Source: a virus
Strand: one strand, 5' to 3'
DNA: 64,000 nt
Virus record (IMG/VR): IMGVR_UViG_3300021962_000027
In this document: in pieces, positions 36,657 to 60,900 of the stretch
Numbering within the stretch: the stretch's first letter is position 1
Layout: the number at the start of each line of letters is the position of its first letter
Translations under genes and position numbers: made by a program
Notes under the pieces: generated by a model
The model's input: only the letters and a program-made list of their open reading frames with translations
What the model was told of the DNA's origin: nothing
Databases searched by the model: none

Positions 36657-36657
36657 A

Positions 36658-36948
36658 TTAAAAGTAATTTTCGCTGTTTATATTTTTATCATCAATAAAT
36701 AAATCATAAGGTGGTTTACCAAACTTTAACTCGTGGTATTTAACACCCCATTCTTTAAATTGTTTCTTTGTTAACTCTGAATGGTCAATACCTGTAACAG
36801 AACCTCTTGCTGTCCAGTATACAATTGTATTACCTTCATCGTATAATTTATTTATTTTTTCAATCCTTTCGGGCATCGGTGTTACTTCATTATAATCGGT
36901 ACCCTCTGTAACACATATTGTATTATCAATATCAACGTATATTAACAT
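36658..36948 (-). CDS. Capless HAD phosphatase (capsule-biosynthesis type); candidate nonulosonate-9-phosphate phosphatase
   Basis: VDIDNTI, WTARG and GKP..DLFIDDK motifs; adjacent to NeuB. Confidence 0.75.
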   Translation of the reverse strand: MLIYVDIDNTICVTEGTDYNEVTPMPERIEKINKLYDEGNTIVYWTARGSVTGIDHSELTKKQFKEWGVKYHELKFGKPPYDLFIDDKNINSENYF

Positions 36949-36983
36949 AGTTTAACTAATTTGATGTCGTCTTTATTTTTTAA

Positions 36984-37817
36984 TTATTTTCTTAAACTTT
37001 TTTGTTTACTCAGTTCACCACCAAATAGTTCTCTAGCCATCATTGGTATTGATAGGGCTGCTTCGATATCACGAACACCTTTAACTAGTTTAAATAACCC
37101 AGATGGTTCAATTGATGCCGAATGATCTGAACCCCACATATCTCTATCCAGTGTGATATGTCGTTCAATCCAAGTTGCACCCATTGGGATGGTTGCAAAC
37201 GTTGTAACTAAACCATATTCATGACCACTATAACCAATCTCTTTATCAGGGTACCAGTTTTTAAGCCAATGGATATAATTGAGATTTAATTCATCAACAG
37301 GGCATGGGTATGTTGAATTGGTATGCATGATAACATCAGGATCACACTCTGAGATACAAGCCCTAACTTCTTTTTCAGTACTCATACCAGTTGAAATCAT
37401 CAGATAATCTGCTTTCCCCCTGGCGTACTGACATAACTCAGAATCGGTTATTAGAGCTGATGGTATTTTCATAACAACACCCAAATCGGTTTTATATTTC
37501 ATCATAAAATCAACCGATGATTTATCCCAAACAGAGGCAAACCAATTAATACCGATTTCTTTACAGAATCTATCAATTTCGTCATATTCTTCATAACCAA
37601 ATTCTGTTCTCCATTTATATTCTAAATAAGTTATTTCACCCCAAGGTGTCTGACGCATTTTACTTTTTTGCTCCTCTGGTACGCAAACGTCTGGGTTTCT
37701 TTTTTGAAACTTTACGTAGTCACATCCAGCGGCTTTTGCAACAAGGATTAAATCCTTTGCTATTTTAAGGTCACCGTTATGGTTGATACCTATTTCAGCG
37801 ATAATTTTTGTACTCAT
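36984..37817 (-). CDS. neuB: NeuB-family nonulosonic acid synthase lacking the C-terminal SAF domain
   Basis: IIAEIGINHNGD, VKFQKR, KIPS, STGMS, STYP, GYSGHE and IERHITLD...GSDH motifs. Confidence 0.93.
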   Translation of the reverse strand: MSTKIIAEIGINHNGDLKIAKDLILVAKAAGCDYVKFQKRNPDVCVPEEQKSKMRQTPWGEITYLEYKWRTEFGYEEYDEIDRFCKEIGINWFASVWDKSSVDFMMKYKTDLGVVMKIPSALITDSELCQYARGKADYLMISTGMSTEKEVRACISECDPDVIMHTNSTYPCPVDELNLNYIHWLKNWYPDKEIGYSGHEYGLVTTFATIPMGATWIERHITLDRDMWGSDHSASIEPSGLFKLVKGVRDIEAALSIPMMARELFGGELSKQKSLRK

Positions 37818-37821
37818 TTTG

Positions 37822-38463
37822 TTAATTAATTAAATCGGTGTAAAATATTTTATTTAGCATAATGTAGTCGTTTTGTTTGACATTAATTGATGATGATTTA
37901 AATATAGGGAAAAATCCCATTTTTTCAACATATTCTAGAACTTCTGGTTCAAGTGTTTGTCCGTTAAAATACTCAAGTTCCTCAGTCTCAATCTGTAGAA
38001 CCCTAATTTTATTTAATAAATTACCAAAACTTTCTAAAGCCTCTAAGGTTGCACCCTCAACATCGATTTTTACAAGATCGGGTATTAACAGATTATTTTT
38101 TGTGATAAAAGTATCCATTCTAGAACATTCTAGTTCAACTAATATATCTTTAGTTTTTGAAAGGTTTTGTTCAAAAATACTATGTATACCATTTTGTTCT
38201 TTCTGATAAAATTGTGTTTTGCCGTCATAATTACGAATAATTATTTGGTGGAAACTAACTTTATCGGTGTTTTTGTCTCGTAAAAATTTTTCATAATTAT
38301 CGGGTAATCCTTCAAAACCAACAACATCGCAATTAAATAATTCTGATAATAAAAAACTATCAGCGCCATTAAGGCATCCTATGTCGTAAACTGTTTTTAT
38401 TTCTGAGATGTCAATTTTTTTAACTAAAACATCTTTCATTGTTTGCATGTCTAATCTAGCCAT
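37822..38463 (-). CDS. FkbM-family SAM methyltransferase
   Basis: VYDIGCLNG, GFEG and DLVKIDVEGA..EAL motifs. Confidence 0.85.
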   Translation of the reverse strand: MARLDMQTMKDVLVKKIDISEIKTVYDIGCLNGADSFLLSELFNCDVVGFEGLPDNYEKFLRDKNTDKVSFHQIIIRNYDGKTQFYQKEQNGIHSIFEQNLSKTKDILVELECSRMDTFITKNNLLIPDLVKIDVEGATLEALESFGNLLNKIRVLQIETEELEYFNGQTLEPEVLEYVEKMGFFPIFKSSSINVKQNDYIMLNKIFYTDLIN

Positions 38464-39302
38464 TTTTCGTAAATTTTAATGTATTCATTTGCAATTGTTT
38501 TCGGGTCCCAATATTTTTCCATCCAAAGCCTGCTTTCATAACCAAGCTCTAAAACATTATTTAAACCAGATTCAATTAACTCAATTAATTTATTTTTTAA
38601 TTCATCACAATTAACATTGATGAATGGATTTCTATCTGCACCAGAAGCTTCTAATAAAACTTTATTAACACTACTACCAATAGAACATATTGTTGCTGAC
38701 CCCATGGCCATAGCCTCTAACCCAGATCTATGATATGATGTTGTTTTAACCTCATCTATGAATATGTTACATAAAGCTTTTCTTTCTAAACATTCTTTTA
38801 AGGGTACACCAATTATTATATCAATTTCAATTTTATCTTTATAAATCTCTTTTAATTCGTTTAAAATAGGTACTGTCTCAACATACCCTTTATCAGCCCA
38901 ATCGGAACCTGGTTTAAGTGTTGATGGTGAGTAACCAATACGAATGATATCTTGTTGATATTGCGGGAAGAACATTTCGTCATATAAATCAATCGGATTC
39001 CTAACAATTTTACAGTTACTGTATTCTTGTAAAGTTGCGTGGTATTGCGCTATAACTAATTTAGGGCATGTGGCATCTAACGCAACCCTAAAAGGTTCAC
39101 TATGAAATTGAATTATATTTTTTTTATCCGTATCAATTAGTTTATTGTGCTGGTGTACGATATCGGTTTCAGGTATAATACCTTTTTGGGGGTATGAATA
39201 CCCAATAACATATGAATTATGATTTGTATATTTGTTAATAACATCACTAATAGCTTCAGGTGCTTTAGCTATTGCTGTTGGTTTATATTGTGCTATTATC
39301 AT
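38451..39302 (-). CDS. Glycosyltransferase-like protein (GT-B)
   Basis: YSPS...DKG, NIFIDE and SGLEAMAMG motifs. Confidence 0.65.
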   Translation of the reverse strand: MIIAQYKPTAIAKAPEAISDVINKYTNHNSYVIGYSYPQKGIIPETDIVHQHNKLIDTDKKNIIQFHSEPFRVALDATCPKLVIAQYHATLQEYSNCKIVRNPIDLYDEMFFPQYQQDIIRIGYSPSTLKPGSDWADKGYVETVPILNELKEIYKDKIEIDIIIGVPLKECLERKALCNIFIDEVKTTSYHRSGLEAMAMGSATICSIGSSVNKVLLEASGADRNPFINVNCDELKNKLIELIESGLNNVLELGYESRLWMEKYWDPKTIANEYIKIYEKWLD

Positions 39303-40293
39303 AAAAAGTTATAATATTATTTTCCTTATCGTAACTATTAGCATTTTCCATTATACTATTTTTTTCAAAATTATAATCATGTACGCTTGATATATTTAAA
39401 CTAACACCTTCATCGGTTCTTAAAATACTTTCGAGCCCGTTTTCGTAAAAATTAAAACCAATTAAATCTATTTTTTCGTAACCACCTAATTTTAATAATA
39501 ATGTTAACATAACAAAACCAGTTGTTGGTGGTTTATTTGTTATTTTTTGTCCATTTATTTCATTATGGTGATTATATTTTAATATAAGACTCTGTTTGAA
39601 TTTATCTAACGATTCAATTTTTTTAATCCAGTTTTTTAATGAAATTGAAACTACAAATCTAATTGGTACAAATTGATCTAGGTTTATATCTTGTAAATAA
39701 ACACTAGCGTGTATCGTGGTTTTTTTACCAGTATACTCTTCATCTAATTTAAAAGAATTAAACCTAATAACTATATCGTATGAATCAATTAGTCGGCCAT
39801 TTTTATTTTTTAATAAATCAGATGAATTAGCGACAAGTATTATATTTTTACCACTAATAAAATTTTTAAGATTTGTTAAATCAATAAAAGACCTGTTAAC
39901 ATTTTTAATCTTTAATTCACGATCTATAGTTTTTGATAATTTATCAATACTTTCTGAGTTTAGATTTTTTTTATCACTAATTAATTTATATAATTCAGTT
40001 AAATTCCTACCAGATTGTTGACCTTTTTTTTCAAATACCTTTTTGATAACCGTTTCAACAACATTACCTTTTTTTAATGTCGAATCTGGTACAACGCTAC
40101 ACCCTTTTTTCATAATAGTGGGTTCTGGTGTTGAGCTAATACCCCTTTTAAGGTGTGTTTTTTCTGGGACAACAACTTTTTCCTCAATAATAGCGCTCTG
40201 TTTGTCAGTATCAACTGTGACAACCTGCTCATCAGATTTTTTAACCACCTTGCCTTGCGTAAGGCCTTTATTTTTCTTTATGAAATAACCCAT
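39283..40293 (-). CDS. GT29-type sialyltransferase with a Lys-rich N-terminal extension
   Basis: Sialylmotif L (VANSSDL....G..IDSYDIVIRFN), S (PTTG...IGFNFY) and VS (HDYNFE). Confidence 0.78.
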   Translation of the reverse strand: MGYFIKKNKGLTQGKVVKKSDEQVVTVDTDKQSAIIEEKVVVPEKTHLKRGISSTPEPTIMKKGCSVVPDSTLKKGNVVETVIKKVFEKKGQQSGRNLTELYKLISDKKNLNSESIDKLSKTIDRELKIKNVNRSFIDLTNLKNFISGKNIILVANSSDLLKNKNGRLIDSYDIVIRFNSFKLDEEYTGKKTTIHASVYLQDINLDQFVPIRFVVSISLKNWIKKIESLDKFKQSLILKYNHHNEINGQKITNKPPTTGFVMLTLLLKLGGYEKIDLIGFNFYENGLESILRTDEGVSLNISSVHDYNFEKNSIMENANSYDKENNIITFYDNSTI

Positions 40294-40918
40294 CTAGATC
40301 TATTTTTGTGTCAACATCAATAACATCGTCAATTTTAAAGAAAAATGTGTCATCGTTATATAAATTATTATTAAGTTTTGTAAGTTCATTAACATTAAAT
40401 ATACAAACATAATGTGAAATCTCAAATACCGCTGGGTAATCTTGTCTTCTATATAAATTATGTTTAACCAATTGGGCACCTTTATTACCAATAATATCAA
40501 ACATGTATAAACAAGGGTGTGTTGATTTTATGTCTTTCTTACAAAGAAGGCTTTTCGCACCTTGTTCGATAAAGAATGTATATGCGTTTTTAATATCAGA
40601 CCAAGTTCTTTCTGGGTATGTTAAATAAAGCATAATAACGGTGTCACCAAAATTAATATCATTATTATCGATATGGTATTGGATGACATCTTTTGTACTT
40701 GTCTCATCCAGAGATAGATTATCTGGTCTAACACTAACATTTAAACCAATACTTTTACATTTTTCAATTAAAACCTCATCATCGGTTGAGATAAGTAAGT
40801 CTTTAAAATATTCAGTTGGAATAGTGTTGATCGTGTGTTCAAATAATAACCTATTTTTAAAAGGTAACCCTTTTGAATTACGTCTAGCTGGTATTAATAG
40901 TTTAACTTTATCGGTCAT
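40268..40918 (-). CDS. neuA: CMP-nonulosonic acid synthetase (cytidylyltransferase)
   Basis: LIPARRNSKGLPFKN, ISTDD, RP..LS.D, RRQD and IDVDT motifs. Confidence 0.9.
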   Translation of the reverse strand: MTDKVKLLIPARRNSKGLPFKNRLLFEHTINTIPTEYFKDLLISTDDEVLIEKCKSIGLNVSVRPDNLSLDETSTKDVIQYHIDNNDINFGDTVIMLYLTYPERTWSDIKNAYTFFIEQGAKSLLCKKDIKSTHPCLYMFDIIGNKGAQLVKHNLYRRQDYPAVFEISHYVCIFNVNELTKLNNNLYNDDTFFFKIDDVIDVDTKIDLDGLFHKEK

Positions 40919-41577
40919 CTATATGTTCTGTTTTCTAGATTTAGTGAAACAAAGGGTATAACTGATACAACATTAGCGTCATAATGTTTTTTAACCTGTT
41001 TTTTTACCAAAATAGTTTGACCCTCTATCATTTTCAACCAAGTCTTATATTGATTCCAAGTAGACCAAGGTGTATCTTTTATTGTATTATAATACCCCTT
41101 AAAAGTCATTTCTCCATCAATTGTACCACAATCATGTCCAATCAAAATTATGTTCTTAGCGCCCATGTAAGCTGCTATATGAATAGCTGAGGTTATTGTT
41201 GAGAAGCTCACAACAATTTTATCACCACCGAAAACAGAGATGTCTACTTTATCGTGCAGATTATCGTTATGTTCGAAATAGTAAAGATTATCATGGTCCA
41301 CCTTGTTCGTGTTTAATTTATCCTCACCAGTGTTTAGGTTACCACTATCGTATTCGGAAACGATTACAATTGACTCTGTCGCTAAACTTTCTTTTATGAA
41401 TTTAACTTCTTTTCTAACTAAGTAATCACACCATATTTTTTTATAAGCTTGATTAACTCCGATAACAATTTTGTTATCAAAAAAATCTTCGTTGAAGAAA
41501 TCAACAGATTTACCTGAGGCTAATACGTATATGTCTTCACCTTGATGTTTATTCTTTAGTTCGATAATACCTTTCAT
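40915..41577 (-). CDS. Maf/DUF115-like putative nonulosonate transferase
   Basis: KNKHQGEDIYVLASGKS, IGVN and SAIHIAAYMGAKNIILIGHD motifs. Confidence 0.65.
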   Translation of the reverse strand: MKGIIELKNKHQGEDIYVLASGKSVDFFNEDFFDNKIVIGVNQAYKKIWCDYLVRKEVKFIKESLATESIVIVSEYDSGNLNTGEDKLNTNKVDHDNLYYFEHNDNLHDKVDISVFGGDKIVVSFSTITSAIHIAAYMGAKNIILIGHDCGTIDGEMTFKGYYNTIKDTPWSTWNQYKTWLKMIEGQTILVKKQVKKHYDANVVSVIPFVSLNLENRTYR

Positions 41578-42242
41578 ATTTTAATGGGTAATTTTTCCCC
41601 GTATTTATATTCGAATAATTTTTTATTAATCTCCCATTGATCATTTGTTTTACCAACTGAAAGGTGTGTAACCGATATATTTGTTACAACACCAATTTTA
41701 ACACCATCTAGGTGGTTAGGTAAACAGAATGATAAATCATAAAAATGAAAACCATGGAAATTATTATCAAAATTATGTTTAATTTTAGTTCGATTAATAG
41801 CTAAAAATAAACCGTCAAGAACAACCATTTGTTTTATGTTGTCACCTTGTTGTTGAGAAAACATGCTAGTCCATTTTTTTTTACCGTCACTATGATTAAC
41901 AATACCATGCATGGATTCTCTAATTGACCACCATCTACCGTCAACTAATCTATTGGTACCAGCTATGCCGATTATACCATAATCCATGTTTTTTTTAAAA
42001 TGTTCGATAATCTTTTTACCCCAATGTCTAGTTTCAAAAATAAGATCATCATGGCAAAAAACTATAATATCATTTTTAGCGTCAATTAAACCTTTATTAT
42101 ATATTTCGGTTAAAGAATGCTCACCATTATTTTCATACGGTAAGATCTCTATACCATCACATAAACAAGTTTTTTGAATATGTTCTATATAATCTTGGTT
42201 AATCTCCCTAGTTGAGAAAACCACACTTATATTATTAATCAT
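41574..42242 (-). CDS. GT2-like glycosyltransferase (Glyco_tranf_2_5 type)
   Basis: YNKG..AKNDIIVFCHDD, GIIGIAG, VLDGLF and GFHFYD motifs; start MINNISVV preferred over 42281. Confidence 0.8.
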   Translation of the reverse strand: MINNISVVFSTREINQDYIEHIQKTCLCDGIEILPYENNGEHSLTEIYNKGLIDAKNDIIVFCHDDLIFETRHWGKKIIEHFKKNMDYGIIGIAGTNRLVDGRWWSIRESMHGIVNHSDGKKKWTSMFSQQQGDNIKQMVVLDGLFLAINRTKIKHNFDNNFHGFHFYDLSFCLPNHLDGVKIGVVTNISVTHLSVGKTNDQWEINKKLFEYKYGEKLPIKI

Positions 42243-42540
42243 AATCCTCTTCAATAATAAGCGGTCTTTCCAGATTATCATTTTTATATTTCAAAACTGG
42301 TATGATACCTTTTATTTTCTGTATAAAAGCAAACTGATTTGTAACCTCGTTAAGTTCACGCTCAAGAAATGTTGTTAATTTATAATCTTCAGAATTTAGT
42401 GGATACACAAAGGCGTATAAAACTTTGTCACCCACTTGTATTCTCTTACCAGACCATACGGTTTTATATTCAATACGATCGAGTACATCTGGTGTAATCG
42501 ATTTGTACGCTCTTATTTGATCTTTAAATTCACTTACCAT
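42235..42540 (-). CDS. Hypothetical protein
   Basis: 101-aa ORF coupled to dut. Confidence 0.65.
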   Translation of the reverse strand: MVSEFKDQIRAYKSITPDVLDRIEYKTVWSGKRIQVGDKVLYAFVYPLNSEDYKLTTFLERELNEVTNQFAFIQKIKGIIPVLKYKNDNLERPLIIEEDYD

Positions 42541-43121
42541 TATTTAACCCCTGTTGATCCGAATCCACCAGAGCCCCTTTCTGAGCTTGATAATGAATCG
42601 GTTTTTATAAATTTAGTTTTATTAATCGTTTGCACGGCAGCGATAACACCCTGAGCAATTCTATCACCTTTGTGGATATAAAAGGGTGTTGACTTATCAG
42701 TATTATATAAAATAACACATACCTCACCTCTGTACCCAGAATCAACTGTACCTGGGCTATTTAATACCATAATACCGTTTTTTAAAGCTAATCCGCTTCT
42801 AGATCTAACCTGTAGTTCATATCCACCTGGTATTTCGAAATGTAGTCCAGTTGGTATTAAAGCTCTATGACCTGGTTCAATTTCAATTGGTAGCTCATTA
42901 TTAGCTCTAATATCAAATCCACTATCCCCATCTTTTTCATACGCTGGGTCTTGGTTTTCAGAATTATTAATGAAACTAACTTTTAACTTAACGGTCATTG
43001 TTTCATTATCATACTCCCATCCACCCATTAAATCATTAGTTTGTGCTAAAAAATTGTCTAGCTCACTTTTTGTTTCATCATCAAAAAGTTCATTAAGGTC
43101 TAAATCTTGTAAGTTATCCAT
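42540..43121 (-). CDS. dut: Trimeric dUTPase with an acidic N-terminal extension
   Basis: SGFDI, RSRSGLA, GTVDSGYRGE, GDRIAQ and RGSGGFGSTG motifs. Confidence 0.96.
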   Translation of the reverse strand: MDNLQDLDLNELFDDETKSELDNFLAQTNDLMGGWEYDNETMTVKLKVSFINNSENQDPAYEKDGDSGFDIRANNELPIEIEPGHRALIPTGLHFEIPGGYELQVRSRSGLALKNGIMVLNSPGTVDSGYRGEVCVILYNTDKSTPFYIHKGDRIAQGVIAAVQTINKTKFIKTDSLSSSERGSGGFGSTGVK

Positions 43122-43122
43122 A

Positions 43123-44346
43123 TTATAATAATGTTTTGTAAATTTCAGATCTTTCTTTTGTCACCGTATTTAAATTATATCTATCCTTAACGGTTTCATA
43201 TAATTTTTCACCTAAATCTTCCACTAAGTTTGGGTTATCAACTAACCTCTTAACATGTTGACTCCATTGTTTATGGTTTTTACTTGATTCAACTAACAAC
43301 GAGTTACCGTTATTATTAAAACCACCACCTTTTTCAATCGCTGAAATTAAATCTATTGTATAAGGTCCATAATTTTGTGCAATAATAGCTTTTTTATGGA
43401 AACCAGCTTCAATAATCTTTAACTGTGATTTATATTTATTAAAAGATGTTTCTACCAAAGGTGCCAAAGCAACGTCAAATTCATTATAACCTTTGGCATA
43501 TGTTTCAATACTTTTAGTCCATATTCTTCTATATGGCATATCCTTATCGTTATATGGTAATTGTGAATCAAATTTTAATAAATGTTTTAAATAATCCGAA
43601 TGTTTCTCTAATAACCTAAAATTATCAGTAATAAAAATCTCATACATAAACCATGTTGTTTCAATTGGTTGCATGTCTCTTTCCATCCACTGATTTGTTT
43701 CTTTATTAAACATTTTGACCTTACCTCTTGTGTCATAACCACAAAGAACAAACTGAATTTTATCAGAATATTCCTTAACTCTTTGTGGAACACCTTTAAG
43801 CAATTCAATATCTTTAATGTGTGATGACCCACCTAACCATCCGAATCTAAGTTTTTCGGATTTAGTTGGGTTCGGTTTAAATTGTGGTTCATTAGGGTTT
43901 ACCGCATTTGGTAAAACTACACAATTTTTATTGTGCTTAAGAACATCTTTTTGTAAAATACTTGTTGTTACAGTGACTAAATCAGCTTCTTTAATAACCG
44001 ACACAATTGTGGCTGGAAAATTTAAGGCTTTAGATTGTTGATACATCCCGTGAGATGGGTCTAAATTCCAGTGATCATCTAAATCGATAATAACTTTACC
44101 ACCGAATGATTTAATCTTTTTAATTATTTTAAGAGCATCAGCAAAATTATTTCCAGGTACCCTGTGAAAAAAGAATAGTTGGAATTTTTTTAAATAACTA
44201 TCATCATCAAAATTAACGTCATAGTTTATTTCAACGAAATAATCATCACCATGGTTATTTTGAAGCGATATATGCGGGTCTAGGCATCTATATTTACCAG
44301 AACCAGCACGATCACTAGGGTTTACAAGAATATTTATCTTACTCAT
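43123..44346 (-). CDS. GT4-like glycosyltransferase
   Basis: GSGKYR..P, IDLDDHW, VLPNA, GWLGGSSH..D and DVALAPL...FN.YKSQLK.IEAG motifs. Confidence 0.85.
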   Translation of the reverse strand: MSKINILVNPSDRAGSGKYRCLDPHISLQNNHGDDYFVEINYDVNFDDDSYLKKFQLFFFHRVPGNNFADALKIIKKIKSFGGKVIIDLDDHWNLDPSHGMYQQSKALNFPATIVSVIKEADLVTVTTSILQKDVLKHNKNCVVLPNAVNPNEPQFKPNPTKSEKLRFGWLGGSSHIKDIELLKGVPQRVKEYSDKIQFVLCGYDTRGKVKMFNKETNQWMERDMQPIETTWFMYEIFITDNFRLLEKHSDYLKHLLKFDSQLPYNDKDMPYRRIWTKSIETYAKGYNEFDVALAPLVETSFNKYKSQLKIIEAGFHKKAIIAQNYGPYTIDLISAIEKGGGFNNNGNSLLVESSKNHKQWSQHVKRLVDNPNLVEDLGEKLYETVKDRYNLNTVTKERSEIYKTLL

Positions 44347-47209: not shown

Positions 47210-50200
47210 TTAAACTGGAATTTCTTCATCAAATCCAGGTAATTTAAATATAATATCATCATTAAACCAATAATCTGGTTCATAATCCATTTTAACCCAG
47301 AATTCTTTTTCCATTTGAGATGGTGTGTAGAATTCATATAAGGTATCTTGATCACCAATATCATTTGGTTCGTCATTAACCAAATCTAGTTCTGACCTAA
47401 GGAACATTTTTTTATCCTCTGGTTTTGTTATCAATATTTCATTTCTATGGGATAATGGGAATGCAACTAGAAGTGGTTCAACCTTTTTGTTAAAAGCGTC
47501 TAAATATTTTGGTACGTTATATTCACCAATAAAATCTGGTTGGTTTTCTATTATATCATTTGGGACTAAAGAGGCGTACATATTGCCATGTTTATCCGTA
47601 GTTGAATCACCATGTGATTTAACTTTACCATTATTTACATAATATATGGTGTCACCTAAATTAACATTTAAGTTATTTATAATAGCTAATTCCATATGAG
47701 CTTGTTTCGGTAATTCCCTACCGTTTTTATCTACACCACGATTTTTATAACCTTGTATTGATTTTTTAACCCTAGCTTTTGTGGCGATTTTAGCCAATGG
47801 TATCTCTTTGTTATGGATTTTTTCAGCGTATTCATGGTAATATTGTACAAACTCATAACCTTGGCCGCTCAATAACATCTTCATACCTTTACCTAGAAAC
47901 TCCTCAATATAAACAGGCATTGCTTTTGATTTAATACTGTTTCCAGTTAAGCTGACAGAGCCATCATCTTCTAACAAAGCGTAGTTCTTTCTTGAAAGAT
48001 TAATCGTTGCTGGCCAAATACCATCCAAACCAAGACCCATCTCCCCACGCATATAGGTGTCATTAAATTCAGCTACAACGGCTTTAACACCAGTATACTC
48101 TTTACCAGCTTCAACCTCATCATTTAAACCCTTACCGATGTAAAAGAATGATTCACCGTTCTTTGGTGCCATGAAGTTAACACCATCCGTATCAAGTACT
48201 AAAGGTGTATAACCTTTCTTGATAAAGAATTTAACCATTAGTCTAAGATACTGTCTAGCTGTACACGTAATTCGTTCACTAACATCTATTTCCGCCCATT
48301 GAAATGCCATAGGTGCACCAAGGGCACCGAACATCGAGTTAATAAAGATCTTAAGCGGTAACTGTTTACGTTTATATTTATCTGCTAATTGGTAATTACC
48401 CTCTTTTTTATATTTATCCGATAATCTCTTAGCGTTAAAACGTTCAGTATGGAAATATTTCAACATCGATTTCATCGCACCGTTAATATCAACACTAGGA
48501 AATACATCATGCGCTAATTGAATAGCTGGATAAAGTGAGTTGTAGTCCATCTTTCTTAAAGTGGTTGAATAACCAACTTTGAATAGTCTGGACAAACCAC
48601 CAGTGTAATCTCTTTTTGTATCCGATACAGGTATGGCCAAATCATTCTCGAATGAATATGCCATCATAAGCAATTTCCATAAACCAGCTGTACCCATTGT
48701 TGAAACCCTTTGGTATGTTGTTGGTACCAACTTAGCTAATAAGAATGATGACTGGTTGTAAACAGCATCAACTTCCATTGTTTCCCATAAGTCATCAATC
48801 AAGTAACGCTCAACGATATATTTACCGTCAACTTCCTCAAATGTATTGATATACTGACGAAGAGCACTTAAAAGGTTCTTAAGATAAGAGAAAGTTTTGG
48901 GCGCTTTGTAATCTAATTGAGCTAAACCAGTACCGATCCCCATTTTAGGGAATACGATAGTTTTACCCTCTCTAATCTTTTGGATTATCTTATTTACATC
49001 GGCATCGATCAGTTTTTTATTTTTATCATAATCAACGTCACTAAAATAAGATTCTGGTGTTGTATCTGGTGAATTTTTAGTTACAATACCAATTACGTTT
49101 GGTTCACCACGCATATCTTTTGCTTGTCCACCAAAACCTTCTCTTTCCACGTTGTCACCAAATACAAATATTTTATCGGGGTTTGATTGGATATGATCTC
49201 TTGTGATATAATCCATAAACTCTAAAGCTGGTTTTGTTTTACAGTATGAACCAGTTCTATCATCAAAATAGAATTTATCCTCTGAATACCAGGTGTTACC
49301 GATTTTGTCACCAACGACATAAACACGGTTCTTCTTAGCGATTTTATTGTATTTACACACATATTTTAAACCAACTGATTTCATACTCGAATCAATCGCT
49401 TGTGCACGCCTAGCTGAGTGAATAATGTCAATAATTGAATAACCAAACATATTTGTCTGTGTATATTCTTCTACCTCATTACCTAGTTTAAGGATACTTT
49501 TTTCTTTTCTCTGGATTAATTCACCTGGTTTAAGTGTTATTGCGATATCCTTAATATCAACACCAAGTTTTTGACAGCGGACAAAAAAGAAATCCCAATC
49601 AAAGTTCGCACTATTATAACCAGCTATAATCGTTGGTTTAATCTCATTAATTTTTTCAAAGAATTTTATAATACCCTGTCTTTCGGATTCATCATTATCT
49701 TCAATAGGTATAATCTCTTCAACACCTTTATTAGTGTAAATCCCGATTAAAAATATCCTATTAATCTCTGGGTCCAAACCAGTGGTCTCTAAGTCGAATA
49801 TAAACTTATGGATATCATCATATTCCTCAAACCCTTTAAACAATCTTTTACCAGTGTGTATAAAATATTGCTCAACTGGTGGTATTATCAAAAAGTGTGA
49901 ATTAATGTCATTTCTTTTATCATAAATATAAATCCCACCTTCTCTAAAGAAATCTTTCATTCTTTTATCACCCTGTGTACAGGTAACTAAGTATTTATAA
50001 CCATCAACTAGTTTTGGGTGATCACCGTGTTCGAGTACTTTAATGTCAATACCGTATCTCTGTCTTGCTGCTTTGATTTTTGAGTCACTATTACCGTAGA
50101 AATTAGTTAGTTCTTTAACCTTATTAAGGTTTTTTATCCACATAAAAGCTAATAAAGGTTCAGTTTCTATATAGTTACCCCTTTCTGGGTCTTGCTTAAC

Positions 50201-50314
50201 CTTGTGTATTAAATTAGTTTCAGCATCGTATTCAACATTAACGATGTATTTCTCATCGTCATGCCCACTAAGGAACTTTTCTATATCTTCGAGTGAAATC
50301 TTATACTCAGCCAT
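47210..50314 (-). CDS. Family B DNA polymerase with an inserted macrodomain-like region
   Basis: ExoI FDLETTG, ExoII GYNSANFD, ExoIII YLIDD; polymerase motifs DYNSLYP, KIFINSMFG and DTDG. Confidence 0.95.
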   Translation of the reverse strand: MAEYKISLEDIEKFLSGHDDEKYIVNVEYDAETNLIHKVKQDPERGNYIETEPLLAFMWIKNLNKVKELTNFYGNSDSKIKAARQRYGIDIKVLEHGDHPKLVDGYKYLVTCTQGDKRMKDFFREGGIYIYDKRNDINSHFLIIPPVEQYFIHTGKRLFKGFEEYDDIHKFIFDLETTGLDPEINRIFLIGIYTNKGVEEIIPIEDNDESERQGIIKFFEKINEIKPTIIAGYNSANFDWDFFFVRCQKLGVDIKDIAITLKPGELIQRKEKSILKLGNEVEEYTQTNMFGYSIIDIIHSARRAQAIDSSMKSVGLKYVCKYNKIAKKNRVYVVGDKIGNTWYSEDKFYFDDRTGSYCKTKPALEFMDYITRDHIQSNPDKIFVFGDNVEREGFGGQAKDMRGEPNVIGIVTKNSPDTTPESYFSDVDYDKNKKLIDADVNKIIQKIREGKTIVFPKMGIGTGLAQLDYKAPKTFSYLKNLLSALRQYINTFEEVDGKYIVERYLIDDLWETMEVDAVYNQSSFLLAKLVPTTYQRVSTMGTAGLWKLLMMAYSFENDLAIPVSDTKRDYTGGLSRLFKVGYSTTLRKMDYNSLYPAIQLAHDVFPSVDINGAMKSMLKYFHTERFNAKRLSDKYKKEGNYQLADKYKRKQLPLKIFINSMFGALGAPMAFQWAEIDVSERITCTARQYLRLMVKFFIKKGYTPLVLDTDGVNFMAPKNGESFFYIGKGLNDEVEAGKEYTGVKAVVAEFNDTYMRGEMGLGLDGIWPATINLSRKNYALLEDDGSVSLTGNSIKSKAMPVYIEEFLGKGMKMLLSGQGYEFVQYYHEYAEKIHNKEIPLAKIATKARVKKSIQGYKNRGVDKNGRELPKQAHMELAIINNLNVNLGDTIYYVNNGKVKSHGDSTTDKHGNMYASLVPNDIIENQPDFIGEYNVPKYLDAFNKKVEPLLVAFPLSHRNEILITKPEDKKMFLRSELDLVNDEPNDIGDQDTLYEFYTPSQMEKEFWVKMDYEPDYWFNDDIIFKLPGFDEEIPV
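48850..49225 (-). other. ~125-aa macrodomain-like insertion between ExoII and ExoIII
   Basis: FVFGDN....GFGGQA...R..PN..GI.TK and VFP..GIGTGLA.L motifs; boundaries approximate. Confidence 0.7.
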
Positions 50315-53518: not shown

Positions 53519-54694
53519 ATGATAAATGATAAAATTGAACATTCTTTAATCAGATTTAAAGAATTATTTGGCTATAGACTTAATGAATCAGAGGATATTA
53601 ATGAAGTTGATTGGGATAAAGAATTTAGCGATGTTAAAAAAAGCTGTTTATCACCAGAGTCAGTTGTTAGTATGTTAAACTCTCAATTAAACAGACTAGG
53701 TAAACCCTCAAAAGATAGGGGTAAGATAAGTGCTAATGAACCTATTATTAGTGGTGGAAATATACCTACTGATAATGAAGGTGAGATTGATATTGAACAT
53801 TTTATCAAACAAATAACCGCATTACCAAAACAAATATTTGATAGAAACCCTAAAATGGAAAAAAGTGATAAGGGTGGTTTACAATACACAGTTAATACTG
53901 GGATACCAGCATTAAGGAGTATACTTTATGATAAAGAACAAGGTGAGTTTTATACAATTAATACTTGTCCTGGAGCTGGTTCATGTGCGATTGATTGTTA
54001 CGCTAGAAAAGGCTTTTATATCATGAACGATGGTAAAAATATAAAATACACACAAAGACTTAATCTATTATTAAACGATCCAGAGACATATGAGAATATT
54101 ATAATGGATGAATTAGATCCTTTAGCTTATAGCCTTAAAAGACAATCAAAAAAAGAGGGTGTTGATATTAAACTAATATTAAGATGGAATGATGCTGGTG
54201 ATTTTTTTGCTAAAAAATATTACGATATAGCTATTAGTGTTACAAACCAATTACTTAAAGCTGGTTACAATGTTGATTCATACGCATATACAAAAATGGG
54301 TGATATAGCAAACATAGCTGACCCTAATTTTATTATGAATTTTTCTGATGACGCTAATAAAAGGGAGACTGAAAAGGTTAATACGGATACAGCTAAAATA
54401 TCTAAAATAGTCCCTAAGGAATTATTTAAGGATATCTTTAAAAAAGAAGGGCCTCACTACGTAAAAGACGAAAAAGGTAAGGCTCAATTTATTGATGATA
54501 GTACTAAAGAGATGTTAAAAAATCGTATAAGTGTTAAATATAATATACCTTATGATTCGATTGTTTATACCGATGAATTACCATCAACACAAGCAGAGCC
54601 ATTGGTCTATAATGTGGTTGTATTACCAACTGGAGACAGTGATGTTGGTGCTCAAAGAAAAGATGTTAAAGGTAGTTACCTACTTCAACATTAA
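53519..54694 (+). CDS. GP88-family protein
   Basis: TCPGAGSC...CYARKG.Y, RWNDAGDFF and YAYTK motifs. Confidence 0.7.
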   Translation: MINDKIEHSLIRFKELFGYRLNESEDINEVDWDKEFSDVKKSCLSPESVVSMLNSQLNRLGKPSKDRGKISANEPIISGGNIPTDNEGEIDIEHFIKQITALPKQIFDRNPKMEKSDKGGLQYTVNTGIPALRSILYDKEQGEFYTINTCPGAGSCAIDCYARKGFYIMNDGKNIKYTQRLNLLLNDPETYENIIMDELDPLAYSLKRQSKKEGVDIKLILRWNDAGDFFAKKYYDIAISVTNQLLKAGYNVDSYAYTKMGDIANIADPNFIMNFSDDANKRETEKVNTDTAKISKIVPKELFKDIFKKEGPHYVKDEKGKAQFIDDSTKEMLKNRISVKYNIPYDSIVYTDELPSTQAEPLVYNVVVLPTGDSDVGAQRKDVKGSYLLQH

Positions 54695-56505
54695 CGTCTA
54701 AGGTGCATAATAACTTCTTTACCAACAGAAATTTGTTCTTCTGATGGGTTATCACCCATGATAGTACTAATAATTTTCATTTTACTTTGTAGTGCTTTGT
54801 ACATGATCATGTCTAACGTATCAGCGAATAAAGGGTAAATAATATGAACTTGGTTTTGTTGGCCGATTCTATGCGCCCTATCTTCAGCCTGCATATGATT
54901 GGCGGGTGTCCAATCTAAATCATTAAATATTACCACACTACTTTCAGTCAGTGTCAAACCAACACCAGCGGCAACAATATTACCTAAGAAAACTTTAATC
55001 TTATCATCGTTTTGGAATGATTCAACGGCCTGTTGTCTTTTTTCTTTTGACACCGAACCATCAATTGTGACAGCTTTTTTACCAAAATGGGCTTGTAATT
55101 CTTTAATAGTATTGGTAAAACAACTAAAAATAATAACTTTCTGATCATTTTCCAACATTTCTTCAGCCATTTCAATTGTATGTACAATTTTATCATAGGA
55201 TAATAATTGTCTAACTTTGATAAGTTTTGTTAAATGGTCAGTAATTGTTGGTTTTTCACCAGCGGCTTCCATTTCCTCAATCCAAGCCTCGTATTCAGCT
55301 ATATAAGCGTTGTAACTGGTTGAGAACTCAAGTGGTAAATAAACTGGTTTGATTGTTTTTTGTGGCAGGTCAATTGAATCATTCTTTGTTCTTCTTAAAA
55401 TAACGTCAGATGAAAAATCTTTCAGCTCCTCTAAATTTGATGACCCAGAACAAACCCAATATTTTTGTTTGGTACCCTTACGATTAAACTGTCTACCAGC
55501 GCAATATCTTTTAACATAACCAACCCAGTTAGCCGCAACGGGTGAATCACACAAATACAAAAGATTATAGAAATCGATTGGTTTATTTGTGATCGGAGTA
55601 CCTGTCAATAACCATCTTACAGGTATTTTCATAGCAAAATCGTTAAAGATCTTGGTTCTATTTGAAGAAGCGTTTTTAAGATAGTGAGCCTCGTCAGCAA
55701 TAACTAGATCAAATTTATGGTAATCAATTGGCGATGTTGGTAAATCAGATACTTTAACACCACGTCTGGGTAAATGGTGAAAATTTTTAAGAATATCGTA
55801 ATTTACAATCGTCCATTTCTTTACAGTTAGATTACTACCGTCAACAATACTAATATTGTCAGGTGAATCGTAATTTGATATCTCTATCTTCCAATTTAAT
55901 TTAAGTGACGCTGGGCATACTACAAGTATTTTTTTGAACTGCCCTTCCATCGCAGCGATAATAGCTGAGGTTGTCTTACCTAAACCCATTTCGTCAGCTA
56001 ATATAAATTTATCATTCATTAATAAATTTTTAATAGCCGTTATTTGATGTGGTTTAGGATCTCTTTCATATTTAGATGGATCGATTATGGGTTCTGGCTT
56101 ACTAACTTTAACACATTCTTTTGATATGTAAAACGTGTAATACTCATCACACCCTTCTTCAAAACAACCAAAAACATGTAAAAAATTATCTTTTCTACTA
56201 AGTAATTTGTTTATAAATATTTTTTCTGGTATGAAATCTAGTTTTAATTGTTCAGCAATAAATGGTCTACATGATTTGCTAATCTTAAATAATTTATTAA
56301 CAACAACTGGGTCAACATGTCCATTTTTAATAATATAGTCACTTTGATTTTTTGTTGGTATGAAGCTTTTGCTTGTAAAATATGTTTTTTGTATCCCTAA
56401 AATGTAATCATTAGTCCCTTTATAAACCTTTAATATATCTAGAGCACGTTTTTCTATTGGTAACTGCATTATAATTCTTAATTCATCGAATTTATTATTA
56501 TTCAA
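54691..56505 (-). CDS. SNF2-family (SMARCAL1/HARP-like) helicase/translocase
   Basis: LADEMGLGKT, VCPASL..NW, DEAHYLKN, LTGTPITN, GVGLTLT and QAEDRAHRIGQ motifs. Confidence 0.93.
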   Translation of the reverse strand: MNNNKFDELRIIMQLPIEKRALDILKVYKGTNDYILGIQKTYFTSKSFIPTKNQSDYIIKNGHVDPVVVNKLFKISKSCRPFIAEQLKLDFIPEKIFINKLLSRKDNFLHVFGCFEEGCDEYYTFYISKECVKVSKPEPIIDPSKYERDPKPHQITAIKNLLMNDKFILADEMGLGKTTSAIIAAMEGQFKKILVVCPASLKLNWKIEISNYDSPDNISIVDGSNLTVKKWTIVNYDILKNFHHLPRRGVKVSDLPTSPIDYHKFDLVIADEAHYLKNASSNRTKIFNDFAMKIPVRWLLTGTPITNKPIDFYNLLYLCDSPVAANWVGYVKRYCAGRQFNRKGTKQKYWVCSGSSNLEELKDFSSDVILRRTKNDSIDLPQKTIKPVYLPLEFSTSYNAYIAEYEAWIEEMEAAGEKPTITDHLTKLIKVRQLLSYDKIVHTIEMAEEMLENDQKVIIFSCFTNTIKELQAHFGKKAVTIDGSVSKEKRQQAVESFQNDDKIKVFLGNIVAAGVGLTLTESSVVIFNDLDWTPANHMQAEDRAHRIGQQNQVHIIYPLFADTLDMIMYKALQSKMKIISTIMGDNPSEEQISVGKEVIMHLRR

Positions 56506-57968: not shown

Positions 57969-60900
57969 ATGGCAAACAAAGTTTATGCATCTCCAGGTGT
58001 TTACACAACAGAAAAAGATTTAACTTTCACTACTGAAACAGTGGGTGTTACTACTTTAGGTGTTGTTGGTGAAACCGTAAAAGGTCCAGCATTCCAACCA
58101 ATTTTCATCAGAAACTTCGATGAGTTTAAAACGACATTTGGTGGGACAAATCCAGAAAAATTTAAAAATACACAAATTGTTAAGTATGAATTACCATACA
58201 TCGCAAAACAGTATTTAACACAATCAAATCAATTGTACGTAACTAGACTACTAGGTTTATCAGGATATGAAGCTGGTATGGCTTGGACTGTTAAAACTTT
58301 AGGTGCATGCGATGAATCAACATTATCACATACTGGTATTACTCAGACTCAAATTGAGTTTCGTTTTAATACAGCAACAAATTCATTTTATGTTGTTGAT
58401 CCAGGTGGAAACATTGACTTGATTGATTACATTTCAAGTTTAACTGGTGTTAATACAACTGAATTTGATTCAGTTTTTAACACATATTTCACTACAATCG
58501 GTGGATATACAGGTGCTAATTTTTATGATAAAAAACATGCAATGTATTGGGGTCTATTGACTAACGATCTACAAAATGAGATGGATACTGATATCGCACC
58601 TATTAATGTATACGATGCGACTTATGTTGATGCTTATGAATTACCTAATACGGTACCTGCACAAGATAGAGACGCTTATGTGTTAAATAATGAATTGGTT
58701 TATAACCCTATTACTCAAACATATAGCGGGCCTAGTTTTGGTTTATTTTGTCACACATTTAGTTCAGCTGGCGCTAGTACCATTAAAGGTAAATTAGAGT
58801 TATACACAATGACTTTAAATTGTGATCCATATACTGAAGGACATAATAAAACAATTGCTACTATTAGAAGTAGAGGTAATTATGTTTCTGATGTGTTAAA
58901 ATACAAAGTTAATACTTTGGATATGATCGCACCAATAGGTTTAGATAGTAACCCTTATTTAGCTTTTGAGTTAACGGGGACAACAGCTAACCCATCTGGT
59001 GGTACGTTCTCTTATACTGTTTCTTTGAAAGAGGGTAATGCTAACTATATTAAAAATGTAATTGGTACAACACCAGCAAACAAAGATTCTTTAATCTATG
59101 TTGAGGAAGTATATGATAACTCATTAAAAATGGGTTGGTTAGAAGGTAAGATTAAAGGTTTATACACAGAATTAACTTCTGTTAATGAATGGGATCATTA
59201 TAAATTCCAATATCAATCACCTGTTACACCATTTATTGTTTCAGAATTAAGAGGTGGTTTACCACAAAGGTTATTTAGGTTTATATCTATATCTGATGGT
59301 ACAACAGCAAACTTTGAAATTAAAGCATCTATCGCAAATGTTGATTTATCTAAAAAGACATTTGATATTTATGTAAGATCATTCAATGATACTGATAAAA
59401 CACCTGTTTTATTAGAGAGATTCACTGATTGTACAATGAATGAAAGTTTAGATAACTACGTTGGTAGAAAAATCGGTACTATCGATAATAAATACCCATT
59501 GAAGAGTAGTTATATCGTCCTTGATTTAGCTAATAACGCACCGATGGATGGCGTACCTGCTGGTTTCGAAGGTTATGAGTTCAGAACTAATAATGAAGTT
59601 AATTATACAGCAACATTAGTACCTGAAATGCCATACAAATTGAAGTATTATGCCCCAGGTGATACAATTTATAACCCACCTTTCGGTAATGCTGTTATCT
59701 CTAGTGGTGATAGAATCCCTAAAAATTATTTAGGTTTCTCAAGTCAATTTGGATTTGATAAAGATTTATTACTGTTCAAAGGTAAAGTTAGTATCTTAGG
59801 TGATAACGCATATAATATTGGTGATGATTACACAACAAAAACTAAAGGTTTCCACATGGATATCAACGCACAATCAATTGTTGATTCTGTAACTGGTGAA
59901 CAAGTTTTTGCAACTGGTGTAGCTTCATTTAACGATGCAACAACTGTTGACGGTACAGTTTCTCACCCATACAATAACATGAGAACAAGAAAATTCACAG
60001 TATTATTCTCAGGTGGTTTTGATGGTTGGGATGAATACAGAGTTAACAGAACAAACACAGATGAATATAAAATCGGTAGAACTGGTTTCGTAGCTGGACA
60101 ATTTGATACATTCACAAATGTTGAATACGCTGAATTGTTTGGTACTTCTGACTACTATGCAACAATGTATGGTATCAGAACATTCCAAAATCCTGAAGAA
60201 ATCGCTATTAACATCTTAGCAACACCTGGTATTGACATGTTAAACAATACTGACTTGGTTAGAGATGCAATTGAAGTGGTTGAAGAGAAGAGATTGGATG
60301 CAATTTATTTACCAACATTACCTGATATTAAATTATTAAATAATAATAACCCTTCAGATACTGAAAGTTGGTACTATGCTGAGGATATCGTTAGCGAATT
60401 AGAGAATACTGATATTGATTCTAATTACACTGCGGTATATTACCCATGGATCCAAATTACAGATACAGACAATAACGCAAACTTGTATATCCCACCTACT
60501 GCTGAAGTAGTAAGAAATATGGCTTATACTGATAACGTAGCGTTCCCTTGGTTTGCAACTGCTGGTTACAATAGAGGTTTAGTTAAATGTAATAGAGCAC
60601 GTATTGTTCTTGACCAAGAGGCTAGAGATGTATTATATCCAGGTAGAATCAACCCATTGGCTACTTATTCAGATGTTGGAGTTGTTATCTGGGGTAATAG
60701 AAACTTACAAGTTAAATCAAGTGCTCTTGATAGATTGAACATCAGAAGATTGTTGTTACAAGCAAGAAGATTGATTATGAGTGTGTCTAAAAGATTGTTA
60801 TTCGATCCAAACGATACCACAGTTAGAAATCAATTCTTGTCTTTGGTTAACCCAATCTTAGATAACATCAGAAAAGAAAGAGGTTTAACAGACTTTAGAG

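What the first reader, a model, noticed from the sequence alone, without database searches (positions are those of the whole stretch)
48850..49225. Macrodomain-like module inserted in the exonuclease domain of the replicative DNA polymerase: possible fork-tethered anti-DarT eraser
Seen: ~125 in-frame residues between ExoII and ExoIII carry FVFGDNxxxxGxGGQA and FPxxGIGTGLA, which match the two Gly-rich ADP-ribose-binding loops of macrodomains. There are no intein motifs, and all polymerase and exonuclease catalytic motifs are intact. Known: DarT toxins ADP-ribosylate phage ssDNA and block replication, DarG macrodomains reverse this, and phage polymerase mutations can escape DarTG. Inferred: a polymerase that detects or removes ADP-ribose from the template as it replicates. 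I do not know of this fusion being described.
Basis: partly seen in the sequence, partly recalled or inferred. Interest (0 to 1): 0.85.

Follow-up and report, generated by a model that had tools for sequence, protein, structure and literature searches.

The report
DarG-like mini-macrodomain inside phage polymerase
An uncultured phage's DNA-copying enzyme carries, inside its proofreading part, a complete small domain (DUF7831) that looks like a stripped-down relative of the enzymes that remove ADP-ribose marks from DNA, so the polymerase may erase a bacterial defence mark itself; this has not been tested.

Summary
The 1034-aa family B polymerase (47210-50314, minus strand) has about 126 extra residues (363-488) between ExoII and ExoIII. 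All Exo and Pol motifs are intact and there is no intein. The extra piece is a full-length Pfam DUF7831 domain (E 2e-43), a family with no known function and no literature.

Relatives about 56% identical in the flanks lack it cleanly. All insert-bearing polymerases form one clade, which points to a single capture.

Elsewhere DUF7831 is fused to NADAR, SLOG, DUF4326, DUF488, AlkB-like, SF1-helicase and MuF modules. The signature eroded independently about 8 times in related polymerases while the insert stayed, so the activity looks accessory.

Anti-DarT action at the fork is plausible (about one in three) but untested. The scan found the same architecture earlier in two other genomes.

The parts
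47210..50314 (-). Family B DNA polymerase gene (1034 aa, P0001)
   Evidence: ORF and translation. Pfam DNA_pol_B_exo1, DNA_pol_B and RNase_H_2. PHROG 262 DNA polymerase, E 8e-45. Matches archaeal PolB structures at E 3e-17.
49778..49798 (-). ExoI motif (residues 173-179, FDLETTG)
   Evidence: Read directly. Invariant in alignment A1.
49589..49618 (-). ExoII motif (residues 233-242)
   Evidence: Aligned to ExoII of Thermococcus-type PolB.
48851..49228 (-). Inserted domain, residues 363-488. The Pfam DUF7831 envelope is residues 365-480 (nt 48875-49222).
   Evidence: PF25176, E 2e-43, full length. Clean insertion relative to relatives. AF2 model with pLDDT 96.3.
49121..49168 (-). Gly-rich loop 1 (residues 383-398), with invariant Asp387, Asn388, Gly393 and Gly396
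   Evidence: Invariant columns in the 48-sequence family alignment. Asn388 aligns with the catalytic Asn of DarG/AdfM, and G.GGQA aligns with MG.GIA.
49067..49093 (-). Strand ending in Thr-Lys (residues 408-416), with invariant Lys413
   Evidence: Invariant. Aligned with the FPTK lysine of DarG/AdfM in three hhalign runs. That lysine is catalytic K80 in T. aquaticus DarG and K78 in AdfM (PMC13309987).
48920..48952 (-). Gly-rich loop 2 (residues 455-465, P..GxGTGLA)
   Evidence: Invariant Pro456 and Gly461, near-invariant Gly459, Thr462 and Gly463. Aligned with the IAIPPLGxGxGG loop of DarG-type macrodomains.
48779..48805 (-). ExoIII motif (residues 504-512, YLIDDLWET)
   Evidence: Aligned to ExoIII of Thermococcus-type PolB.
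48179..48547 (-). Polymerase motifs A (residues 590-598), B (655-663) and C (707-712, DTDG)

Best explanation
The insert is an intact DUF7831 domain. I read it as a minimised, highly divergent macrodomain of the DarG/TARG1 type. It keeps both phosphate-binding Gly loops and the catalytic Asn and Lys (Asn388, Lys413), but has lost about 30 residues (helix end plus hairpin) and the terminal strand. One ancestor of a large clade of uncultured phages captured it into a surface loop of the proofreading domain, about 15 residues before ExoIII, without harming the polymerase. Most likely it binds an ADP-ribose-type adduct and hydrolyses it from single-stranded nucleic acid. Placed on the replicative polymerase, it would do this in cis on the DNA being copied, for example on ADP-ribosyl-thymine or -guanine written by DarT-like host defence enzymes. 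It is an accessory counter-defence module, not part of the polymerase mechanism. Shown here: the domain identity, the clean single insertion, purifying selection on the intact copies, repeated erosion in others, the closest fold and profile match, and the fusion partners. Inferred: homology to macrodomains, the ADP-ribose substrate, action on DNA, and action at the fork.
For: Identity: PF25176 at 147 bits, full length. All 24 family signature residues are present.

Profile: hhalign of the family against 21 DarG/AdfM-type macrodomains gives score 31.0, P 2.3e-4, probability 44%, over 119 collinear columns. Controls were lower: reversed 21.3; 150 column shuffles, maximum 21.5; 150 block shuffles, mean 16.9, and 1 of 150 reached 31. 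In that alignment Asn388 and Lys413 fall on the Asn and Lys whose mutation kills DarG/AdfM (N22/K80 and N23/K78; PMC13309987).

Context: among 70 multidomain DUF7831 proteins the partners are DUF488-N3a (5), SF1/PIF1 helicase (4), cpYpsA SLOG (3), DUF4326 (2), NADAR (2), an AlkB-like dioxygenase (1) and a kinase+UvrB_inter+MuF protein (1). This is the NAD/ADP-ribose and DNA-replication network described for Macro, SLOG, NADAR and DUF4326 in PMC7824862 and PMC9503650.

Selection: between intact copies the insert is 58.5% identical, against 64% for the exonuclease part and 68% for the polymerase part.

Accessory nature: on a tree built without the insert, all 83 insert-bearing polymerases plus two that later lost it form one clade. 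The signature was lost in at least 8 lineages, while the insert itself was lost once.

Precedent: stand-alone phage macro (AdfM) and NADAR (AdfN) enzymes do neutralise DarT, and a polymerase mutation can escape DarTG2 (PMC13309987, PMC11825919).

Against: Pfam Macro, PADLOC and PDB sequence searches do not match the domain. Against DarG alone, hhalign gave only 2-3% probability. The 44% result depends on the template alignment I chose, and one block shuffle equalled it.

The model has only four strands, and I found no equivalent of the adenine-binding Asp of classic macrodomains.

No DarT, host identity or ADP-ribosylation system is known for this phage. I could not determine where the insert sits relative to the template path. 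Fusions to SLOG, DUF4326 and DUF488, and to packaged MuF-type giant proteins, fit small-molecule targets just as well. The repeated erosion shows that the polymerase works without the activity.
Confidence: 0.4

Rival explanations
1. The domain acts on free ADP-ribose-derived small molecules. It could be a hydrolase or sponge for Thoeris-type cyclic ADPR signals, ADP-ribose-1''-phosphate, O-acetyl-ADP-ribose or NAD breakdown products. On this reading the polymerase is merely an abundant early-expressed carrier.
For: The fusion partners cpYpsA SLOG, DUF4326 and DUF488-N3a are predicted to process diffusible ADPr derivatives (PMC9503650). The domain occurs in giant, probably virion-packaged proteins of 2000-6700 aa and in a MuF fusion. 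Poa1p and yeast Ymx7 (ADP-ribose-1''-phosphatases) are among the structural matches.
Against: A small-molecule role does not explain a stable insertion inside a DNA-binding enzyme, nor the fusions to SF1 helicases, NADAR and an AlkB-like dioxygenase, which act on nucleic acids. The aligned catalytic Asn/Lys pair is that of the DarG/TARG1 clade.
Confidence: 0.2
2. The domain is a non-catalytic insert. It could be a structural piece, a docking surface for replisome partners, or a reader that senses a nucleotide or ADP-ribose and tunes the balance between polymerase and exonuclease.
For: At least 18 of 83 insert-bearing polymerase clusters keep the insert while losing the signature, so its bulk is tolerated or needed without the motifs. 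Many macrodomains are binders only (general knowledge).
Against: In the window's copy and 64 other clusters all 21-24 signature residues are kept, and the insert is nearly as conserved as the exonuclease core. The invariant polar residues (Asp, Asn, Arg, Asn, Lys, Asp) look like an active site. The same domain lives as a stand-alone 125-140 aa protein in about 100 cultured phages.
Confidence: 0.15
3. The domain removes ADP-ribose from proteins rather than from DNA. The target would be the polymerase itself or neighbouring replisome proteins after modification by a host ADP-ribosyltransferase, a self-cleaning replisome.
For: TARG1-type macrodomains, the closest structural class, hydrolyse protein Glu/Asp-linked ADP-ribose (general knowledge). 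ART-based anti-phage systems are diverse (PMC11618068, listed).
Against: No known defence ADP-ribosylates phage polymerases. The partners NADAR, AlkB-like and helicases point to nucleic-acid substrates.
Confidence: 0.12
4. The macro resemblance is convergent. On this reading DUF7831 is an unrelated small alpha/beta nucleotide or phosphate-handling domain, for example an end-processing phosphoesterase working with kinases and ligases in nucleic-acid repair.
For: No significant Foldseek, Pfam or PDB-sequence link to macrodomains. The Z margin over other folds is small. There is a fusion to a PNK/Zeta-type kinase.
Confidence: 0.12

Closest known systems
Pfam DUF7831 (PF25176) / PHROG 2072: stand-alone small proteins of phages and giant viruses, and modules of giant phage proteins
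   Same: A full-length, high-scoring member with all 24 signature residues. It is 40-50% identical to stand-alone genes of Caulobacter phiCbK-like, Rhizobium, Ruegeria and Microcystis phages and to Tupanvirus and Hyperionvirus proteins.
   Different: Here the domain is not a separate gene or a terminal module. It is spliced into the exonuclease domain of a family B polymerase. The family has no assigned function and no literature.
DarG antitoxin macrodomain (DarTG toxin-antitoxin; T. aquaticus, M. tuberculosis, EPEC)
   Different: There is no neighbouring DarT gene and no C-terminal DarT-binding domain. About 30 residues and the last strand are missing. Pfam Macro does not match. Sequence identity is about 18%. 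Activity is untested.
AdfM (PhiKZ gp104), the phage macrodomain that removes DarT2 ADP-ribose from DNA (PMC13309987)
   Same: It is a phage-encoded DarG-type fold placed where phage DNA replicates. The N23/K78 equivalents are conserved. AdfM-type sequences were part of the profile that matched.
   Different: AdfM is a canonical stand-alone Pfam Macro protein imported into the phage nucleus. The domain here is a much-reduced relative built into the polymerase itself.
TARG1 / Poa1p minimal macrodomains
   Different: They are eukaryotic enzymes acting on protein-linked ADP-ribose or on ADP-ribose-1''-phosphate. I made no tool-based sequence comparison with them.
Macro/SLOG/NADAR/DUF4326 fusion network of jumbo phages and giant viruses (PMC7824862, PMC9503650)
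   Same: DUF7831 is fused to SLOG, NADAR and DUF4326 on one side, and to replication proteins on the other. This is the pattern those papers describe.
   Different: Those surveys do not name DUF7831 or a polymerase-internal insertion.

Membership tests
Pfam DUF7831 (PF25176) | Match to the family HMM above the gathering score over its full length | tested here: met
   147.2 bits against a cut-off of 27; profile positions 2-117 of 118.
Pfam DUF7831 (PF25176) | Family signature residues (FGDN, G.GGQA, R, N, TK, D, P..G.GTG, L, AP) | tested here: met
   24 of 24 are present in the window's copy.
Macrodomain superfamily (DarG/TARG1/Poa1p clade) | Three-layer alpha/beta/alpha macro fold | tested here: inconclusive
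Macrodomain superfamily (DarG/TARG1/Poa1p clade) | Detectable sequence or profile similarity to macrodomains | tested here: inconclusive
   Pfam Macro gives no hit for any of 48 members. hhalign against a diverse DarG/AdfM profile gives P 2.3e-4, probability 44%, and beats 299 of 300 shuffles. Against DarG alone the probability is 2-3%.
Macrodomain superfamily (DarG/TARG1/Poa1p clade) | Two Gly-rich diphosphate-binding loops in the canonical order and spacing | tested here: met
   Loop 1 (Asn plus G.GG.A) and loop 2 (P..G.G.G) align column for column with those of DarG-type macrodomains.
Macrodomain superfamily (DarG/TARG1/Poa1p clade) | Catalytic Asn and Lys of the DarG/AdfM type | tested here: met
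   The invariant Asn388 and Lys413 align with the VN asparagine and FPTK lysine. Their catalytic roles are taken from PMC13309987. Catalysis itself was not tested.
Macrodomain superfamily (DarG/TARG1/Poa1p clade) | Complete six- or seven-stranded sheet, including the hairpin after helix 1 and the C-terminal strand | tested here: not met
   The model has four strands. The alignment shows a deletion of about 30 residues and no terminal strand.
Macrodomain superfamily (DarG/TARG1/Poa1p clade) | Binding or hydrolysis of ADP-ribose | not testable with these tools
   This needs biochemistry.
DarG antitoxin of DarTG | Adjacent DarT toxin gene and a C-terminal DarT-binding domain | tested here: not met
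   The domain is internal to a polymerase. The neighbouring ORFs have no ART or DarT match. Compare the EPEC DarT-DarG pair in L006.
Family B DNA polymerase with 3'-5' exonuclease | ExoI, ExoII and ExoIII, and Pol motifs A, B and C | tested here: met
   All are present and aligned to solved archaeal PolB.
Intein | Hint splicing blocks or a homing endonuclease domain | tested here: not met
   Pfam finds no intein family in P0001. A relative, P0052, does carry PF14528 and PF14890 elsewhere in the protein.

The most novel reading that the evidence does not exclude
A replicative DNA polymerase that carries its own DarG-like DNA de-ADP-ribosylase in the proofreading domain. It would erase ADP-ribosyl base adducts from the template or primer as it replicates. 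That would be a lesion-erasing replicase evolved as a built-in answer to DarT-type defence, gained once in a large phage clade and allowed to decay wherever the defence is absent.
Probability: 0.3. Interest if true: 0.85.

Novelty: new variant of a known kind. Interest (0 to 1): 0.63.

Why it matters
Known phage answers to DarT are stand-alone enzymes (AdfM, AdfN), inhibitors, or polymerase point mutations. A hydrolase built into the polymerase would be a new design: the eraser sits exactly where the adduct blocks replication.

It would also give a first function to DUF7831. That family has more than 2000 sequence clusters in phages, giant viruses and giant packaged phage proteins. The case would further show how far a macrodomain can be cut down and still work.

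The repeated decay of the active-site signature inside an otherwise conserved polymerase is a natural experiment on the cost and benefit of a counter-defence module. The idea is directly testable with two point mutants and existing DarT assays.

Tried and rejected
- Foldseek against PDB gave no match at E <= 0.001. The top rows (pantothenate synthetase, DUSPs) have TM 0.2-0.3 and are meaningless.
- Foldseek against BFVD found only other DUF7831 proteins.
- phmmer and hmmsearch against PDB sequences found only the analogous phosphate loop of triosephosphate isomerase (E 0.35).
- Pfam scans of all 48 family members at E <= 10 gave no Macro hit. NCBIfam and PADLOC gave nothing.
- hhalign against one DarG gave 1.7% probability, and against 121 near-identical DarGs 3.2%, although the register was the same. 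hhalign in global mode gave a nonsense end-to-end alignment.
- An intein was rejected.
- Recent horizontal patching was rejected, because the insert's GC equals that of the gene.
- No whole genome is held for this window, so I could not look for other ADP-ribose genes or a second polymerase outside the 64 kb.
- The host was not identified. The nearest cultured phages share only about 26-35% identity in polymerase or sheath.
- Pfam found no partner domains in two giant DUF7831 proteins.
- A 10-protein scan aimed at locating the NADAR and AlkB-like fusions missed them.
- Gene neighbourhoods of stand-alone copies are not decisive: rIIA/rIIB and a helicase in phiCbK, dexA and dCMP deaminase in phiM9, a helicase in Mwe-JY26, and an HD protein in a metagenome contig.
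- The domain tree is too poorly resolved to prove a single capture on its own.
- The Rhodanese-phosphatase paper (doi 10.1093/nargab/lqad029) is not held.
- I did not run a complex prediction or a second structure job. No coordinates are returned, so the position of the insert relative to the DNA path could not be read.

Full report
**What is there.** The stretch 48850-49225 lies inside the only long ORF of the region, a 1034-residue protein on the minus strand (47210-50314). It is a family B DNA polymerase. Pfam finds the PolB exonuclease and polymerase domains, PHROG 262 'DNA polymerase' matches at E 8e-45, and the nearest solved relatives are archaeal PolBs at E 3e-17. ExoI (residues 173-179), ExoII (233-242), ExoIII (504-512) and polymerase motifs A, B and C are all intact. 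The window is a low-GC (about 31%) uncultured myovirus, with a tail sheath at 57969-61040 and an SNF2 helicase at 54691-56505. It has no close cultured relative. No whole genome is held for it.

**The insert is a catalogued domain.** Residues 365-480 match Pfam DUF7831 (PF25176) over positions 2-117 of 118, at 147 bits against a cut-off of 27, and also PHROG 2072 of unknown function. No intein family matches. No paper in the library mentions DUF7831.

**The insertion is clean and was captured once.**
- An alignment with relatives shows a clean insertion. Polymerases about 56% identical in the flanks (about 940 aa) run straight from the conserved G.Y segment to the ExoIII helix, while the window's protein has about 120 extra residues ending about 15 residues before ExoIII.
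- The insert's GC equals that of the gene.
- Among the 120 best polymerase relatives, 83 carry an insert at this site.
- On a tree built without the insert columns, those 83, together with two polymerases that later lost the insert, form one clade (support 100) nested among insert-less polymerases. This indicates one capture.
- A tree of the domain itself is compatible with that, but poorly resolved.

**Where else the domain occurs.** A search of 1.84 billion representative proteins found 2153 clusters. Of the best 149 representatives other than the window's own polymerase cluster, 46 are stand-alone proteins of 170 aa or less, and 33 are giant proteins of more than 2000 aa. About 100 cultured phages encode it as a small separate gene, among them Caulobacter phiCbK-like, Rhizobium, Ruegeria and Microcystis phages. 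Giant viruses and crAss-like phages also have it.

**Fold.** With a 48-sequence alignment, AlphaFold2 gives a very confident model (pLDDT 96.3, pTM 0.89) of four strands and five helices.
- Foldseek finds nothing in PDB, and only other DUF7831 proteins in BFVD.
- A second look gives TARG1 6.6 and T. aquaticus DarG 6.0.
- These scores are middling. Unrelated three-layer folds such as CbiL reach 5.5, so the fold evidence alone is suggestive and not decisive.

**Profile comparison.** I fetched a real DarT-DarG pair from E. coli E2348/69. I then collected DarG homologues and 14 diverse phage macro proteins, including the PhiKZ-type AdfM.
- Against DarG alone, or against near-identical DarGs, hhalign gives only 2-3% probability.
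- Against the diverse 21-sequence profile it gives score 31.0, P 2.3e-4, probability 44%, over 119 collinear columns covering the whole domain.
- Controls scored lower. The reversed profile scored 21.3. In 150 column shuffles the maximum was 21.5. In 150 shuffles of 8-column blocks the mean was 16.9 (sd 3.0), and one reached 31.
- The alignment puts the invariant Asn388 on the 'VN' asparagine and G.GGQA on MG.GIA. It then skips about 30 macro residues (helix end plus hairpin). After that it puts the invariant Lys413 on the FPTK lysine and P..GxGTG on PPLGxGxGG.
- That Asn and Lys are the catalytic N22/K80 of T. aquaticus DarG and N23/K78 of AdfM, and the N23A mutant is inactive (PMC13309987).
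- I therefore read DUF7831 as a minimised relative of DarG/TARG1-type macrodomains, at about 75% confidence. It is not a standard member: Pfam Macro does not match and part of the sheet is missing.

**Context.** Among 70 multidomain DUF7831 proteins the recurrent partners are:

| Partner | Count |
|---|---|
| DUF488-N3a | 5 |
| SF1/PIF1-type helicases | 4 |
| cpYpsA SLOG | 3 |
| DUF4326 | 2 |
| NADAR | 2 |
| AlkB-like dioxygenase | 1 |
| PNK/Zeta-type kinase with UvrB_inter and MuF | 1 |
| Sigma-70 regions 3/4 | 1 |

This is the network that Iyer, Burroughs and Aravind describe for Macro, SLOG, NADAR and DUF4326, which links NAD/ADP-ribose chemistry with replication and restriction-modification proteins (PMC7824862, PMC9503650). 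NADAR reverses guanine ADP-ribosylation of DNA, and AlkB-type enzymes remove base adducts from single strands. Together with the helicases and the polymerase, these partners point to adducts on single-stranded nucleic acid. The SLOG and DUF4326 partners, and the packaged giant proteins, fit small-molecule targets equally well.

**Selection.** Between polymerases with an intact signature, the insert is 58.5% identical on average. The exonuclease part is 64% identical and the polymerase part 68%, so the insert is under purifying selection.
- Ten clusters in two clades next to the window's own subclade are 85% identical to it in the exonuclease part, but only 48% identical in the insert. They have lost much of both Gly loops (12-17 of 24 signature residues).
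- Eight further clusters keep a 100-125 residue insert with almost no signature left.
- One lineage lost the insert altogether.
- The tree needs at least 8 independent losses of the signature.
- The activity is therefore dispensable for replication and is repeatedly abandoned. That is the behaviour expected of a conditionally useful counter-defence function. The window's copy has all 24 signature residues.

**Interpretation.** The most likely reading is a DarG-like hydrolase for ADP-ribose-type adducts, working in cis on the DNA handled by the polymerase. I put this at about 0.4 for the whole chain of inference, and at about 0.3 for the specific anti-DarT-at-the-fork version. The rivals are:
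- action on free ADP-ribose derivatives (0.2);
- a non-catalytic structural or reader role (0.15);
- removal of protein ADP-ribosylation (0.12);
- a convergent, unrelated phosphoesterase-type function (0.12).

I could not establish where the insert sits relative to the template path, what the host is, or whether that host has DarT.

**Novelty.** Stand-alone phage macro (AdfM) and NADAR (AdfN) anti-DarT enzymes are published (PMC13309987, PMC11825919). A polymerase-internal version and a function for DUF7831 are not. Databases already show PF25176 inside these polymerases. This scan has noted the same architecture in two other genomes with the same reading.

Noticed in passing
window 1-5583 (+): A giant open-ended ORF (more than 1860 aa) made of collagen-like Gly-X-Y triplets in units of about 24 residues (72-nt period). 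Its GC is 0.43-0.45 against about 0.31 elsewhere. The long antisense ORF at 3-4541 is probably an artefact of the repeat. This is most likely a fibre or decoration protein.
   Followed up: partly
window 35892-44346 (-): A cluster for a sialic-acid-like (nonulosonic) sugar. It holds NeuB synthase (36984-37817), FkbM methyltransferase (37822-38463), a GT29-like sialyltransferase (39283-40293), a CMP-sugar cytidylyltransferase (40268-40918), an MptE-like protein (40915-41577), a GT2 (41574-42281) and a further glycosyltransferase (43123-44346). A dUTPase/dCTP-deaminase-like gene (42540-43121) and PhoH (35892-36656) lie alongside it.
   Followed up: partly
relatives P0007-P0016, P0052, P0064-P0066, P0080, P0082, P0084, P0093: These polymerases keep the insert but have partly or fully lost the DUF7831 signature, in at least 8 independent lineages. 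Two of those lineages are the nearest sister clades of the window's phage.
   Followed up: yes
relative P0052 (1392 aa): A polymerase of the same clade that carries an intein (PF14528, PF14890) in addition to a degenerate DUF7831 insert.
   Followed up: no
relatives P0088 and P0096 (1067 aa): These sit inside the insert-bearing clade but lack the insert at this site, and yet are about 125 residues longer than insert-less polymerases. They must hold extra sequence elsewhere.
   Followed up: no
proteins P0122, P0163, P0174: Unusual DUF7831 architectures: a tandem double DUF7831 (P0122), sigma-70 regions 3/4 plus DUF7831 (P0163), and DUF7831 plus DUF4326 (P0174).
   Followed up: partly
L001 (Caulobacter phage phiCbK) 3995-4444: The stand-alone DUF7831 gene (gp282) lies directly downstream of rIIA and rIIB. 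The phiCbK genome has no canonical Pfam Macro match.
   Followed up: partly
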